A DNA stretch of 12,156 nt from a virus (IMGVR_UViG_2663763227_000007), one strand, 5' to 3'. Numbered from the stretch's first letter, positions 8,147 to 10,791 are shown. Notes: generated by a model not told the origin, from the sequence alone. Program-made: numbers and translations.

Positions 8147-10210
8147 ATGACAGTAAAAATTTCTGGCGTGCTTAAAGATGGCACAGGAAAACCAGTACAG
8201 AACTGCACCATTGTGCTGAAGGCCAGACGGACCAGCAGCACGGTGGTGGTGAACACGGTGGCCTCTGAAAATCCGGATGAAGCCGGGCGTTACAGCATGG
8301 ATGTTGAGTATGGCCAGTACAGCGTCACCCTGCTGGTTGAAGGTTTTCCGCCTTCACATGCCGGGACCATTACCGTCTATGAAGGCTCCAGACCAGGTAC
8401 GCTGAATGATTTTCTCGGTGCCATGACGGAAGATGATGTCATGCCGGAGGCATTGCGTCGTTTTGAGGCAATGGTGGAAGAAGTGGCACGCAACGCCGAA
8501 GCCGCCTCTCAGAGCGCAGCGGCGGCAAAGAAATCCGAAACTGCAGCGGCATCATCAAAGAACGCGGCGAAAACCTCAGAAACGAATGCAGCTAATAGTG
8601 CACAGGCGGCAGCGACCTCGCAGACTGCATCGGCAAACTCCGCGACAGCAGCCAAAAAATCAGAAACCAACGCGAAAAATAGCGAGACAGCCACAAAGGC
8701 CAGCGAAAAAAACGCAAAATCCAGCCAGACGGCAGCGAAAACCAGTGAGACGAATGCCAAAGACAGTGAAGCCAACGCAAAGGTGAGCGAAACAGCGGCG
8801 GCGAACTCGGCGAAAGCATCGGCAGCAAGCCAGACGGCAGCAAAAGCAAGTGAAGATGCTGCCAGAGAATACGCAAACCAGACAGCAGAGCCGTACAGAT
8901 ATGTTTTACAGCCGCTGCCGGATGTGTGGATACCCTTTAATGATTCGCTGGATATGATTACGGGCTATTCTCCGGGTTATAAAAAAGTGAAGATTGGTGA
9001 TAATGTGGTTCAGGTTGCCAGTGATAAACAGGTTAATTTCAGTCGCGCATCAACGGCAACATATATCAACAAATCTGGCGAACTGAAAACGGCGGAAATT
9101 AATGAGCCACGATTTGAGTGTGATGGCCTGCTTATTGAGGGGCAAAGAACGAACTTCTTCCCGAACAGTACAGACCCTTCGAAGTGGAATAAGTCAACTT
9201 CACTGGACGTTACAGAAACAGGCACAGATAGTTTCGGGTTTAATTATGGCCGGTTTGTCGTACAGGATTCGATTGTTGGTACAAGTAAAGCGCATACCAT
9301 TATCGGACTGTATTCGAGTACCGGAGGGGGTGATACTTCAGGGGACGAAAAGCATGTAACTATATCCTGTCGGGTAAAAAGTGAAGTTGATAATATCGCC
9401 GTTCGTATTTTATTTGAACATTATGATGGGGAGGTAAGGACATCAATAGGAGCAGCAAACCTGAACCTTACCACCCGCATAATTAGCAAGACAGGTCAGA
9501 CAAGCCGTGTTACAGCAAGGTCTGTTAAGGATGATGCAACTGGCTGGATATTTTTTGAGGCTACATTAAAAGCAGATACAACAGAAAATACGGTTGGTGG
9601 TTTTGTCCAGTATTCTCCGGATACAGGGCAGATGGTTGCATCAGGGGATTATCTCGATGTAACCACTCCACAGATTGAGGCTGGTACAGGCGCATCATCT
9701 TTTATTGTTACGGGGACGGCACCGGTAACGCGGGCAAGCGATATGGTTACAGTTCCGATTAAGAATAATCTTTATAATCTTCCTTTTACGGTTCTTTGTG
9801 AGGTACATAAGAACTGGTATAAAACGCCAAATGCAGCACCGCGTGTTTTTGACACATACCGGCATCAGGCAGATGCGGGGATCGTAATGGGGTTTGGTTC
9901 ATCAGGTGGGTACGACGGTTTTCCGTATTGTGATATAGGTGGTTCAAACCGACGAATAAATGAAAATGCCGGGCTGGAAAAAATGCTTATTGGTATGCGG
10001 GTAAAGTCCGAACGGTCCACATGTGTAGTCAGTAACGGTAAGTTAAGCAGCGAAACTAAAACCAAATGGGAATATATCCGGAGTACAGCAACCATTCGCA
10101 TTGGTGGACAAACTACAGCAGGATTACGCCATTTATTTGGGCATGTGAGGAATTTTCGTCTCTGGCATAAAGAGCTAACAGATGCGCAGCTTGGGGAGGT
10201 TGTGGAGTGA
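8147..10210 (+). CDS. stf: Side tail fibre protein (Stf-like): lambda-Stf N-terminal anchor domain, Ala/Ser/Thr-rich repeat shaft, divergent C-terminal globular (putative receptor-binding) domain; 687 aa
   Basis: First ~115 aa (M.VKISGVLKDGTGKPVQNCTI.LKARR...GRYSMDVEYGQYSV...GFPPSHAGTITVYE...PGTLNDFL.AMTEDD) match the lambda Stf N-terminus as recalled. Low-complexity repeat shaft follows; residues ~250-687 show no lambda-Stf-like Gly/His-rich C-terminus. Confidence 0.85.
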   Translation: MTVKISGVLKDGTGKPVQNCTIVLKARRTSSTVVVNTVASENPDEAGRYSMDVEYGQYSVTLLVEGFPPSHAGTITVYEGSRPGTLNDFLGAMTEDDVMPEALRRFEAMVEEVARNAEAASQSAAAAKKSETAAASSKNAAKTSETNAANSAQAAATSQTASANSATAAKKSETNAKNSETATKASEKNAKSSQTAAKTSETNAKDSEANAKVSETAAANSAKASAASQTAAKASEDAAREYANQTAEPYRYVLQPLPDVWIPFNDSLDMITGYSPGYKKVKIGDNVVQVASDKQVNFSRASTATYINKSGELKTAEINEPRFECDGLLIEGQRTNFFPNSTDPSKWNKSTSLDVTETGTDSFGFNYGRFVVQDSIVGTSKAHTIIGLYSSTGGGDTSGDEKHVTISCRVKSEVDNIAVRILFEHYDGEVRTSIGAANLNLTTRIISKTGQTSRVTARSVKDDATGWIFFEATLKADTTENTVGGFVQYSPDTGQMVASGDYLDVTTPQIEAGTGASSFIVTGTAPVTRASDMVTVPIKNNLYNLPFTVLCEVHKNWYKTPNAAPRVFDTYRHQADAGIVMGFGSSGGYDGFPYCDIGGSNRRINENAGLEKMLIGMRVKSERSTCVVSNGKLSSETKTKWEYIRSTATIRIGGQTTAGLRHLFGHVRNFRLWHKELTDAQLGEVVE
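8490..8870 (+). repeat. Degenerate 21-nt (7-aa) periodic repeat region inside stf encoding an Ala/Ser/Thr/Lys-rich shaft
   Basis: About 17 successive heptads of the type AAKKSET / NAKNSET / AAKTSET / NAKDSEA; nucleotide-level repetition of gcgaaaa..agcga(a/g)ac. Generates Arg/Lys-rich and Ala-rich shadow ORFs in other frames (8433..8786, 8509..8775, 8592..8876). Confidence 0.6.
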
Positions 10211-10485
10211 GAGATTTCACGTTGCGTTTCAGTGATAAAGCAGATTTCAGGGCATTTCTCAGGAAACTTAACTGGGAAGAGGACGAAGAGCTGCAGAATG
10301 CCGTTCTGGTTGATGAGATTGGTTTTACGTTCAGTGAGTCAGGTGTTTCTGCTGACGGGGAGCCTGAATACACGCGAGACGAAGGGTACTTTGTTAATAT
10401 TCGTCTTCTTGACGATGGCTTTGATGAATCCGTGTTCCGTGAGTGGGTGGTTACACCAGAGCGCCCGCTCAGGGAGTGGTTTTAA
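10207..10485 (+). CDS. Hypothetical small acidic protein (92 aa), translationally coupled to stf
   Basis: GTG start at 10207 overlaps the stf stop (GTGA) with a GGGGAGG Shine-Dalgarno 7 nt upstream; no in-frame ATG anywhere in the ORF. Strongly acidic product (EEDEE, DDGFDE). No resemblance to Tfa tail-fibre assembly proteins that I can recognise. Confidence 0.5.
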   Translation: MRDFTLRFSDKADFRAFLRKLNWEEDEELQNAVLVDEIGFTFSESGVSADGEPEYTRDEGYFVNIRLLDDGFDESVFREWVVTPERPLREWF

Positions 10486-10494
10486 GGGGAGCAG

Positions 10495-10791
10495 ATGGAT
10501 ATCACGCCGATACTTCATGCAATTTGTGCTGTGGCGGTACAGGGGCTGGTTGGGTGCATTACCGGTGACTGGGCTTATGGTGCAGCCATTGCCTGTACGT
10601 TTTTTGTTGCCCGCGAATATACCCAGGCAGAATATCGCTGGATTAAGCGTTTTGGTGATGGTCACCGACATAAGATGCCGTGGTGGGGCGGTTTTGATCC
10701 GCACGCGTGGGATGTGGCAAGCCTGATGGATTTTGTGGTGCCGGTGGTGGCCTGTGCGGGATTGTATGGCTGTATGCTGATTTTTAGCTGA
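10495..10791 (+). CDS. Hypothetical small hydrophobic protein (98 aa); possible membrane protein or lipoprotein
   Basis: AAGGGGAG Shine-Dalgarno just upstream of ATG. Hydrophobic N-terminus ending in a lipobox-like LVGC (Cys21), a second hydrophobic stretch, and a hydrophobic C-terminal segment (VASLMDFVVPVVACAGLYGCMLIF). Plausible codon usage, unlike the overlapping alternative frames. Confidence 0.55.
   Translation: MDITPILHAICAVAVQGLVGCITGDWAYGAAIACTFFVAREYTQAEYRWIKRFGDGHRHKMPWWGGFDPHAWDVASLMDFVVPVVACAGLYGCMLIFS

What the first reader, a model, noticed from the sequence alone, without database searches (positions are those of the whole stretch)
10207..10791. Two-gene cassette directly coupled to the tail-fibre gene: acidic 92-aa protein plus 98-aa hydrophobic, lipobox-bearing protein
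The 92-aa ORF starts at a GTG embedded in the stf stop (GTGA) with a strong GGGGAGG Shine-Dalgarno inside the stf 3' end, so it is almost certainly co-translated with the fibre. Its product is highly acidic. The next ORF, 9 nt downstream with its own Shine-Dalgarno, encodes a small hydrophobic protein with an LVGC lipobox-like motif at Cys21. The N-region lacks Lys/Arg, so signal-peptide status is uncertain. Receptor-masking superinfection-exclusion lipoproteins are characteristically encoded next to the receptor-binding gene (T5 llp, phi80/N15 cor), and small acidic phage proteins are often protein or DNA mimics. The pair could therefore be a receptor-blocking exclusion module or a novel fibre accessory or chaperone pair. 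I do not recognise either protein.
Basis: partly seen in the sequence, partly recalled or inferred. Interest (0 to 1): 0.7.

Follow-up and report, generated by a model that had tools for sequence, protein, structure and literature searches.

The report
Tail-fibre helper gene plus small membrane-protein gene

Summary
orf92 (10207-10485, GTG inside the stf stop GTGA, SD GGGGAGG, pI 4.25) and orf98 (10495-10791, 9 nt downstream) are intact and under purifying selection (dN/dS 0.13-0.41). RefSeq annotates both as hypothetical proteins, and both occur in classic phage 21.

orf92 (phrog_1361) follows fibre genes with this conserved C-terminal (GTA-head-spike/LamG-like) module. It does so in lambdoid prophages and in virulent T1-, T5-, Dhillonvirus- and rV5-like phages, with distant copies in Comamonas and Pantoea. 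I read it as a fibre accessory protein (assembly factor, cap or adaptor) of a family unrelated to Tfa or gp38.

orf98 (phrog_1443) is predicted as a three-helix inner-membrane protein (AlphaFold pLDDT 93). Its "lipobox" Cys21 is present in 1 of 76 family representatives, so the Cor/Llp model fails. Full-length phage copies were found in temperate phages of three tail types beside unrelated receptor-binding genes, and in Aeromonas phages of unknown lifestyle. Sphingomonadales carry chromosomal copies. None turned up in the virulent coliphages that carry orf92. Its function is unknown; my best guess is a lysogeny-associated envelope or exclusion factor.

No Pfam, NCBIfam, PADLOC, PDB or literature match exists for either protein. 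Interest is moderate.

The parts
8147..10210 (+). Side tail fibre gene stf (687 aa). It has a lambda-Stf-type N-terminus, an Ala-rich coiled region, and a C-terminal GTA-head-spike-fibre/LamG-like module ending ...RHLFGHVRNFRLWHKELTDAQLGEVVE.
   Evidence: Pfam phage_tail_N 2.7e-68. NCBIfam GTA_spike_fiber 1.3e-19. phrog_1419 and phrog_5939. PDB sequence matches to 9e7m (residues 1-94) and to RcGTA Rcc01080, 6tb9 (residues 298-545). The extreme C-terminus is conserved in all 11 fibres compared.
10193..10199 (+). Shine-Dalgarno sequence GGGGAGG for orf92, located inside the stf 3' end.
   Evidence: Read directly from the sequence. A purine-rich SD lies at the same place in homologous loci.
10207..10485 (+). 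orf92: acidic 92-aa alpha/beta protein whose GTG start overlaps the stf stop (GTGA). It is a fibre-linked accessory gene, RefSeq WP_001204583.1 (hypothetical protein).
   Evidence: phrog_1361 2.5e-39. AlphaFold pLDDT 86. 187 phage records hold a homologue, always next to a fibre gene where inspected. 80 of 80 IMG/VR loci have the stf C-terminal module immediately upstream. dN/dS 0.27-0.41.
10486..10491 (+). Shine-Dalgarno-like GGGGAG for orf98, in the 9-nt spacer.
10495..10791 (+). orf98: 98-aa protein with three predicted helices (4-23, 26-53, 74-97) and a conserved basic loop, R40-E41-x-T-Q-A-E-Y-R-W...R58..MPWWGGFD..W72. RefSeq WP_000355614.1 (hypothetical protein).
   Evidence: phrog_1443 4e-44. 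AlphaFold pLDDT 93. 448 clusters at 50% identity in the profile search. Conservation. Charge distribution. dN/dS 0.13-0.35.
10797..10816 (-). Intrinsic terminator hairpin (GGGGAGCCTGAGCGCTCCC followed by a T-run on the minus strand). It closes the convergent ykgJ-like cargo gene and marks the end of the fibre operon. On the plus strand it has no T tail.
   Evidence: sequence.

Best explanation
These are two independent genes that sit together at the 3' end of the late (tail-fibre) operon of a lambdoid E. coli prophage.

(1) orf92 is a dedicated partner of side or lateral tail fibres that end in the conserved GTA-head-spike/LamG-like C-terminal module. It is translated by coupling to the fibre's stop codon, so it is probably made in amounts linked to the fibre's. 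Most likely it binds the conserved fibre C-terminus as an assembly factor, a cap, or a docking adaptor. In many relatives a second short fibre protein is encoded right after it.

(2) orf98 is a separately mobile, three-helix inner-membrane protein. The inferred topology is N-terminus in the cytoplasm, the conserved basic loop in the cytoplasm, and the C-terminus in the periplasm. It belongs to a broad proteobacterial family. Temperate phages carry it next to their receptor-binding genes or at known moron hotspots. It most likely acts at the cytoplasmic membrane of the lysogen or the late-infected cell, as an exclusion or envelope-protective factor, and not as an outer-membrane receptor mask.

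Shown here: gene reality, translational coupling, distribution, predicted folds, and non-conservation of the lipobox. Inferred: binding of orf92 to the fibre, the membrane topology of orf98, and any exclusion activity.
For: orf92. Homologues occur in 187 phage records spanning lambdoid, T1-like, T5-like, Dhillonvirus, Seuratvirus and rV5-like phages. In 47 of the 53 annotated rows listed, the hit overlaps a CDS annotated as tail fibre or tail protein. Inspected loci show a start/stop overlap with the fibre gene. In IMG/VR, 80 of 80 loci have the stf C-terminal module immediately upstream and a full-length orf92. Distant orf92-like genes (phrog_18574) follow fibres with the same module in Comamonas and Pantoea. 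The gene is retained in strictly virulent phages and is under purifying selection even where no second fibre exists. That argues for a role in virion production and not in lysogenic conversion.

orf98. The AlphaFold model has three helices at pLDDT 93. K+R residues concentrate in loop 40-73, a mean of 5.3 against 0.6 or fewer elsewhere. His8 in helix 1 is conserved in at least 90% of members. Full-length phage copies in the rows listed by the phage search lie in lambdoid, P22-like and phiHAP-1 temperate phages and in Aeromonas phages of unknown lifestyle. None lies in the virulent coliphages that carry orf92. Those copies lie after a tailspike and before int, or after tfa at the P2 Z/fun-type position. 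In phage Gally the gene stands alone behind a terminator, with an AT-rich upstream region. A truncated remnant follows the fibre gene of phage HC6.

Against: orf92 similarity does not track similarity of the fibre's variable C-terminal 420 aa. It is therefore not a specificity-matched chaperone of the Tfa/gp38 type.

For orf98, no sigma-70 consensus promoter precedes it in the window. In several relatives it sits 14 nt behind a terminator, or overlaps the upstream late gene. Both arrangements suggest late lytic expression instead of prophage expression. It also occurs inside structural or replication gene blocks of Aeromonas phages, and beside housekeeping genes in Sphingomonadales. A phage-exclusion role is therefore far from proven.
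Confidence: 0.45

Rival explanations
1. orf98 is a Cor/Llp-like outer-membrane lipoprotein that masks the phage receptor. orf92 is its partner or a protein/DNA mimic. Together they form a receptor-blocking exclusion module.
For: The genes sit next to the receptor-binding gene. The LVGC motif is present in this copy. orf92 is acidic.
Against: Cys21 is present in 1 of 76 family members, and a lipobox-like motif in 4 of 76. The n-region has no Lys or Arg and carries Asp2. His8, Gln16 and Gly20 of the supposed signal peptide are conserved. Two further hydrophobic helices follow. No match to Cor/Llp or any superinfection-exclusion PHROG or Pfam family was found. orf92 is kept by virulent phages, which have no lysogen to protect.
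Confidence: 0.04
2. orf92 and orf98 work together as a two-part fibre maturation system. The membrane protein orf98 would provide a platform or anchor at which orf92 helps Stf fold, trimerise or attach during late infection.
For: The triad fibre-orf92-orf98 recurs in E. coli, Comamonas and Pantoea prophages. It is nearly invariant in E. coli relatives: 78 of 80 and 78 of 78 loci. orf98 is co-transcribed and closely spaced with late genes and lacks its own promoter here. In Chelativorans and phiHAP-1 it overlaps the stop of a fibre or tfa gene.
Against: The inspected virulent phages with the same fibre module and orf92 carry other genes after orf92, and none appears among the orf98 hits listed. 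orf98 also accompanies unrelated receptor-binding proteins (P22-type tailspike, P2-type fibres, a Desulfovibrio tailspike) and non-phage genes. Only 7 of 58 species-level orf98 loci have an orf92-like gene.
Confidence: 0.15
3. orf92 is a structural virion protein: the adaptor on which a second, short distal fibre docks to give branched fibres. In the window's phage it persists without that partner.
For: In PhiR63_1, E. ruysiae, KarlJaspers, IrisVonRoten and KarlBarth, orf92 is followed directly by a short fibre protein (225-574 aa). These proteins share a roughly 30-aa N-terminal motif. orf92 sequences group by the presence or absence of that gene and not by Stf similarity.
Against: Phage 21, Lambda_2E9, ev243 and the window have no second fibre, yet keep an intact orf92 under purifying selection. 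No virion proteomics or structure shows it in particles.
Confidence: 0.25
4. orf98 is a host-fitness moron or a general small membrane protein, for example involved in envelope or stress physiology, with no role in phage infection. Its place beside fibre genes would reflect only the usual moron insertion hotspots.
For: Chromosomal homologues in Sphingomonadales lie next to ligA, prmA, an aspartate-oxidase-like gene, DAHP synthase and CFA synthase, with no phage genes. In phages it sits at recognised cargo positions: tailspike-int in P22-like phages, and the position after tfa and before the tail-sheath gene in phiHAP-1 (the P2 G-FI position as I recall it). It is the last phage gene before host genes in several prophages.
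Against: It overlaps or abuts late structural genes without its own promoter in many loci. The association with receptor-binding genes recurs across three tail morphotypes and four proteobacterial classes.
Confidence: 0.2

Closest known systems
Tail fibre assembly proteins Tfa (lambda), gp38/gp57A (T4), G (P2) and U (Mu)
   Same: orf92 is encoded immediately 3' of the fibre gene, is small, and is present wherever this fibre type is present, including in virulent phages.
Cor (phi80/N15/T1) and Llp (T5) receptor-masking lipoproteins
   Same: orf98 is a small gene placed beside the receptor-binding gene.
   Different: orf98 has no conserved lipobox Cys, no basic n-region, three hydrophobic helices and a conserved His in helix 1. 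It is predicted to be an inner-membrane protein, not an outer-membrane lipoprotein, and it shows no homology to Cor or Llp.
Inner-membrane superinfection-exclusion proteins (HK97 gp15, T4 Imm, P22 SieA)
   Same: orf98 is a small polytopic inner-membrane protein. Full-length copies were found in temperate phages and in Aeromonas phages of unknown lifestyle, and none in the virulent coliphages that carry orf92. It is a plausible blocker of a step at the cytoplasmic membrane.
   Different: No homology was detected. Prophage expression is not shown. Cellular, non-prophage homologues exist. The properties of gp15, Imm and SieA are recalled from memory and were not compared by sequence here.
Branched lateral tail fibres LtfA/LtfB of T5-like phages DT57C and DT571/2 (PMC4728585, PMC10713586)
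   Same: Relatives of this locus encode two fibre proteins in tandem; IrisVonRoten is a T5-like example.
   Different: As far as searched, the published LtfA/LtfB/LtfC model does not describe a 92-aa protein between the two fibre genes. The window's phage has only one fibre protein.
RcGTA head spike fibre Rcc01080 (PDB 6tb9)
   Same: Stf residues 298-545 match it (4.3e-05; NCBIfam GTA_spike_fiber). This defines the fibre module that orf92 accompanies.
   Different: That protein is a capsid decoration of a gene transfer agent, not a tail fibre. Whether an orf92-like gene accompanies it was not checked.

Membership tests
Cor/Llp-type receptor-masking lipoprotein (tested on orf98) | Lipoprotein signal peptide with a lipobox Cys conserved across the family | tested here: not met
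   Cys occupies that column in 1 of 76 representatives; a lipobox-like motif occurs in 4 of 76. Among 33 close relatives, most have L, I, F, T or V at the position.
Cor/Llp-type receptor-masking lipoprotein (tested on orf98) | Basic n-region, and a non-conserved, cleaved hydrophobic h-region | tested here: not met
   The N-terminus is MDITP, with no K or R. His8 (at least 90%), Gln16 and Gly20 in the supposed h-region are conserved.
Cor/Llp-type receptor-masking lipoprotein (tested on orf98) | Sequence membership in the Cor or Llp families | tested here: not met
   The only PHROG matches are phrog_1443 and phrog_34165, both of unknown function. There are no Pfam or NCBIfam hits.
Cor/Llp-type receptor-masking lipoprotein (tested on orf98) | Blocks adsorption or irreversible binding of phages that use the cognate receptor | not testable with these tools
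   Needs expression in a sensitive host followed by adsorption and plating assays.
Tail fibre assembly chaperones (Tfa/gp38/Caudo_TAP) (tested on orf92) | Gene immediately downstream of the fibre gene and co-inherited with it | tested here: met
   Start/stop overlap in all inspected loci. 80 of 80 IMG/VR loci.
Tail fibre assembly chaperones (Tfa/gp38/Caudo_TAP) (tested on orf92) | Sequence or fold similarity to known chaperone families | tested here: not met
Tail fibre assembly chaperones (Tfa/gp38/Caudo_TAP) (tested on orf92) | Co-variation with the receptor-binding tip of its fibre | tested here: not met
   Phage 21 and Lambda_2E9 share 42% identity over the Stf C-terminal 420 aa, but their orf92 proteins are 93% identical. 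Phage 21 and PhiR63_1 share 71% over Stf, but 54% over orf92.
Tail fibre assembly chaperones (Tfa/gp38/Caudo_TAP) (tested on orf92) | Required for fibre folding or attachment | not testable with these tools
   Needs a deletion mutant, virion proteomics or complex prediction.
Inner-membrane superinfection-exclusion proteins (HK97 gp15 / T4 Imm / P22 SieA type) (tested on orf98) | Small polytopic cytoplasmic-membrane protein | tested here: met
   Prediction only. Three helices at pLDDT 93, a matching hydropathy profile, and the positive-inside charge distribution.
Inner-membrane superinfection-exclusion proteins (HK97 gp15 / T4 Imm / P22 SieA type) (tested on orf98) | Expressed from the repressed prophage (own promoter) | tested here: inconclusive
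   No consensus promoter lies before orf92 or orf98 in the window. A weak candidate lies upstream of the stand-alone copy in phage Gally. In other relatives the gene sits directly behind a terminator.
Inner-membrane superinfection-exclusion proteins (HK97 gp15 / T4 Imm / P22 SieA type) (tested on orf98) | Homology to a characterised exclusion or defence protein | tested here: not met
   No PADLOC hits. No annotated PHROG or Pfam hits.
Holin (tested on orf98) | Located in the lysis cassette, with a charged C-terminal tail and holin family membership | tested here: not met
   The gene lies at the end of the tail-fibre operon. The C-terminus is hydrophobic (...GCMLIFS). Only 1 of 76 family members gave a weak Phage_holin_8 hit, at 0.0036.
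Acidic DNA or protein mimics (Ocr/ArdA-type anti-restriction) (tested on orf92) | Early-expressed, elongated acidic fold that mimics DNA | tested here: not met

The most novel reading that the evidence does not exclude
Two untested families could each define something new. orf92 may be the founding member of an unrecognised, widely shared tail-fibre partner family, needed for every fibre carrying the GTA-spike/LamG C-terminal module across lambda-, T1-, T5- and rV5-like phages. orf98 may define a new class of small inner-membrane proteins that travel with receptor-binding genes of sipho-, podo- and myoviruses. Through their invariant cytoplasmic loop (H8, R40-E41, Q44, E46, R58, MPWWGGFD) they might bind a conserved host inner-membrane component to block phage genome entry or to protect the envelope. 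Cellular homologues in Alphaproteobacteria could reveal that host target.
Probability: 0.2. Interest if true: 0.65.

Novelty: new variant of a known kind. Interest (0 to 1): 0.42.

Why it matters
Side and lateral tail fibres of this type recognise O-antigen or LPS and set host range in many coliphages used for therapy and for engineered DNA delivery. If orf92 is an obligatory partner, fibre-swapping designs must move it together with the fibre.

About a third of complete E. coli genomes (1,888 of 5,426) match part of a query covering the stf 3' end, orf92 and orf98, and many of those matches cover orf98 alone. If orf98 alters susceptibility to other phages, it would be a very common and so far unrecognised determinant of phage resistance. 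Both proteins are also small, tractable entry points into two PHROG families with no assigned function.

Tried and rejected
Family and structure searches that gave nothing informative:
- Pfam, NCBIfam and PADLOC scans of both proteins, and of 76 orf98-family members, gave no meaningful hits.
- An Rfam scan of the whole window found nothing.
- PDB sequence or profile searches for both families found nothing.
- Foldseek against BFVD for orf98 found nothing below E 0.35.
- The afdb50 library was unavailable.

Literature searches by accession numbers, PHROG ids and topic found no paper describing either protein. The DT57C, BASEL, svsR and CASP16 papers were read and do not mention them.

Other dead ends: a genome scan with the most diverse alignment failed for lack of a conserved stretch, so I repeated it with the closer alignment. 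One Pfam call failed on a wrong reading frame.

Ideas considered and dropped:
- orf98 as a holin: wrong location and wrong C-terminus.
- orf98 as a GtrA-like flippase: no Pfam match.
- orf92 as a DNA mimic: late, fibre-coupled gene with a compact fold.
- orf92 as a specificity-matched chaperone: it does not co-vary with the fibre tip.
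Full report
WHERE THE WINDOW COMES FROM. The window is 99% identical to a lambdoid prophage inserted near ompW and the trp operon in E. coli O7:K1 strain CE10 and many other strains. The gene order is tape-measure C-terminus, M, L, K, I, J (1266 aa), lom, stf (8147-10210), orf92 (10207-10485) and orf98 (10495-10791). Cargo follows: a convergent YkgJ-family gene (10909-11241, minus strand) and a VapA/VapB-family gene (11427-11879). 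RefSeq annotates the two small ORFs as hypothetical proteins WP_001204583.1 and WP_000355614.1.

CHECK OF THE OBSERVATION.
- The GTG at 10207 overlaps the stf stop (GTGA).
- GGGGAGG lies 7 nt upstream of that GTG.
- A 9-nt spacer carrying GGGGAG precedes the ATG of orf98.
- orf92 has 23 acidic and 11 basic residues and a pI of 4.25.
- orf98 is hydrophobic and carries LVGC ending at Cys21.

Both are real genes. Each matches a PHROG family of unknown function over its full length: phrog_1361 at 2.5e-39 and phrog_1443 at 4e-44. Pairwise dN/dS is 0.27-0.41 for orf92 and 0.13-0.35 for orf98. The orf92 start position is the same in all homologues, usually as an ATGA or TAATG overlap with the fibre stop; the window's lineage and KarlBarth use GTG.

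THE TRIAD IN E. COLI. The same stf-orf92-orf98 arrangement occurs in classic phage 21 (CPT_21_22, 23 and 24), Lambda_2E9, ev243 and several ECOR-derived phages.
- Among 5,426 complete E. coli genomes, 414 hold at least 80% of the last 607 nt of stf.
- 365 of those genomes hold at least 80% of that stretch plus both ORFs as one contiguous match.
- In IMG/VR, 80 of the 80 closest orf92 loci have the stf C-terminal module directly upstream and a full-length orf92.
- 78 of those 80 have orf98 downstream, 74 of them full-length.
- All 78 usable orf98-anchored loci have orf92 upstream. In 41 it is adjacent. In 37 there is a gap of 31-1500 nt, which holds a second, short fibre gene in the loci of this kind that I inspected.

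That criterion is not met.

orf92 AT WIDER RANGE. A tblastn search of 50,697 phage records found 187 with a homologue. They include strictly virulent groups:
- T1-like Drexlerviridae (KarlJaspers, orkinos, tonn)
- T5-like Demerecviridae (IrisVonRoten, EC100, L6jm)
- Dhillonvirus (KarlBarth)
- Seuratvirus (JenP1 and JenP2)
- rV5-like Vequintavirinae (pangalan, nomine)

In 47 of the 53 annotated rows listed, the hit overlaps a CDS annotated as tail fibre or tail protein. In every locus I opened, the gene begins at the stop codon of a fibre gene. In the 11 of those fibres that I aligned, the product ends in the conserved ...GGQTxxGxRHLFGHxRNFRxWHKxLTDxQ... segment.

That fibre module matches the NCBIfam 'GTA_spike_fiber' domain and the solved RcGTA head-spike fibre Rcc01080. 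In Comamonas and Pantoea prophages, shorter fibres with the same module (ending ...RLTA) are followed by a gene of phrog_18574. This is the PHROG family that orf92 hits weakly (1.4e-4). It shows the same landmarks (FLRF ... VDVIG ... GYHVNL ... PxRVF).

A gene kept by compact virulent genomes, and always coupled to the fibre, is most simply a fibre accessory protein.

orf92 does not co-vary with the variable receptor-binding part of the fibre. Phage 21 and Lambda_2E9 are 42% identical over the Stf C-terminal 420 aa, yet their orf92 proteins are 93% identical. Phage 21 and PhiR63_1 are 71% identical over Stf but only 54% over orf92. If it binds the fibre, the conserved extreme C-terminus is therefore the likely site. 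That is inference.

In many relatives orf92 is followed at once by a short second fibre protein of 225-574 aa. These proteins have PHROG tail-fibre annotations and share a roughly 30-aa N-terminal motif. orf92 sequences group by the presence or absence of this gene. An adaptor role for branched fibres is thus a serious alternative to a chaperone role. However, the window, phage 21 and Lambda_2E9 have no second fibre and still keep orf92 under purifying selection. So it must also serve the main fibre.

orf98 IS NOT A LIPOPROTEIN. In an alignment of 33 close relatives the Cys21 position is mostly L, I, F, T or V. Among 76 representatives of the wider family it is Cys once, and a lipobox-like motif occurs in only 4. 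The supposed signal peptide carries nearly invariant His8, plus conserved Gln16 and Gly20, and has no basic n-region.

AlphaFold predicts three helices (4-23, 26-53, 74-97) at pLDDT 93. Basic residues concentrate in loop 40-73, a mean of 5.3 K+R against 0.6 or fewer in the other extramembrane segments. By the positive-inside rule, that places the loop and the N-terminus in the cytoplasm; this is inference.

The invariant or nearly invariant residues are H8, R40, E41, Q44, A45, E46, R58, W72 and P83, with a Y47-R48-W49 and MPWWGGFD motif in most members. Cor/Llp membership therefore fails on every sequence criterion that could be tested.

orf98 AT WIDER RANGE. A profile search of 1.84 billion cluster representatives found 448 clusters at E <= 0.001. 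None of 76 members matches a Pfam family. In the phage collection, 72 records have a copy:
- Lambdoid phages.
- P22-like Lederbergviruses. There it lies between the tailspike and int, behind a terminator in Gally and after an O-acetylase gene in 611R6.
- Halomonas phage phiHAP-1, where it overlaps the stop of the tail-fibre assembly gene and precedes the sheath gene.
- Aeromonas phages, where it lies in other positions.

None of the virulent T1-, T5-, Dhillonvirus- or rV5-like coliphages that carry orf92 appears in the listed orf98 hits, and 60 of the 72 records were listed. In the four such loci inspected, other genes follow orf92. Phage HC6 keeps only a 51-codon remnant after its fibre gene.

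A scan of one genome per species returned 70 loci from Gamma-, Beta-, Alpha- and Deltaproteobacteria, and 58 of them were analysed. Only 8 have the Stf-type fibre upstream, and 7 have an orf92-like gene. Other upstream neighbours are unrelated tail fibres, a tailspike and a tail protein that also matches tail-fibre PHROG families (Leclercia, Desulfovibrio, Pantoea). In Sphingomonadales the neighbours are housekeeping genes: ligA, prmA, an aspartate-oxidase-like flavoprotein, DAHP synthase and CFA synthase.

orf98 is therefore an independently mobile gene with cellular relatives. It is not the obligate partner of orf92.

HOW orf98 MIGHT WORK. Several facts point to a lysogeny-associated function at the cytoplasmic membrane: the positions it occupies beside unrelated receptor-binding genes in temperate phages of three tail morphotypes, its absence from the virulent coliphages that carry orf92, and its decay in HC6. 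Exclusion of incoming genomes, or envelope protection, are the obvious candidates, by analogy with HK97 gp15, T4 Imm and P22 SieA. Those three are recalled from memory and were not compared by sequence.

COMPARISON WITH KNOWN SYSTEMS AND NOVELTY. orf92 behaves like a tail-fibre assembly or accessory gene, but it is not a member of the Tfa/gp38/Caudo_TAP families. orf98 resembles small inner-membrane exclusion proteins in size and predicted location only. Both genes are already catalogued as hypothetical proteins and PHROG families, and both are present in phage 21, so the instance itself is not new. What is not in the searched literature is any function, or any recognition that orf92 is a constant companion of this fibre module across phage families.

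VERDICT. I rate the finding a new variant of a known kind: a fibre accessory gene of an unrelated family, next to an uncharacterised membrane moron-like gene. Interest is moderate, at 0.42.

Noticed in passing
window 3185-3527: A roughly 340-nt AT-rich insert lies between tail genes I and J and is unannotated in CE10. It is bracketed by two hairpins: 3200-3229 (preceded by an A-run, so terminator-like on the minus strand) and 3398-3421 (followed by TTTCTGTTT). It could be a small moron or an sRNA locus. Rfam found nothing there.
   Followed up: partly
window 6240-6411 (inside J, 3528-7328): An 87-nt tandem duplication (2.0 copies, 82% match) encodes a repeated coiled-coil-like segment (SEIKQTVSQ...[12 protein letters not shown]). 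J is 1266 aa.
   Followed up: no
window 10909-11241 (-) and 11427-11879 (+): Cargo at the prophage end consists of a YkgJ-family CxxCxxCC protein and a homologue of the Rhodococcus equi VapA/VapB virulence-associated proteins (Pfam R_equi_Vir 5.3e-34). The region has 25-39% GC, against 57-60% for the tail genes.
   Followed up: no
window 7347-7366 and 8099-8128: lom (7396-7995) is flanked by two strong plus-strand terminators, the classic moron layout. The second ends 19 nt before the stf start, so stf-orf92-orf98 needs antiterminated read-through.
   Followed up: no
L009:4292-5332, L017:5286-5990, L004:5270-5947, L006:4289-6013: Related phages insert a second short fibre gene (225-574 aa) right after orf92. 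These proteins share a roughly 30-aa N-terminal motif (phrog_4563 positions 1-32) on otherwise different fibre bodies, which suggests a common docking peptide.
   Followed up: partly
L071, L079, L077, L049, L064 (Sphingomonadales and relatives): Chromosomal orf98 homologues lie beside ligA, prmA, an aspartate-oxidase-like gene, DAHP synthase or CFA synthase, with no phage genes nearby. The family therefore has a cellular branch of unknown role.
   Followed up: partly
L024:5432-5998, L029:5432-5998, L031:5484-5999: In Comamonas and Pantoea the orf92-like domain is fused to an extra C-terminal domain of roughly 80-95 aa (phrog_6034 and phrog_14311, unknown function).
   Followed up: no
L084:2965-3120 (Escherichia phage HC6): An unannotated 51-codon remnant of orf98 (...IPWWGGFDWRAWDLPSLLD*) sits directly after an 859-aa tail fibre.
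   Followed up: partly
L012:2405-3529 and L001:5386-8835: The cargo next to orf98 differs widely between phages: an OafA-type O-acetylase in P22-like 611R6, the SitABCD manganese/iron transporter in Lambda_2E9 and phage 21, and OmpT plus a methyltransferase in ev243.
   Followed up: no
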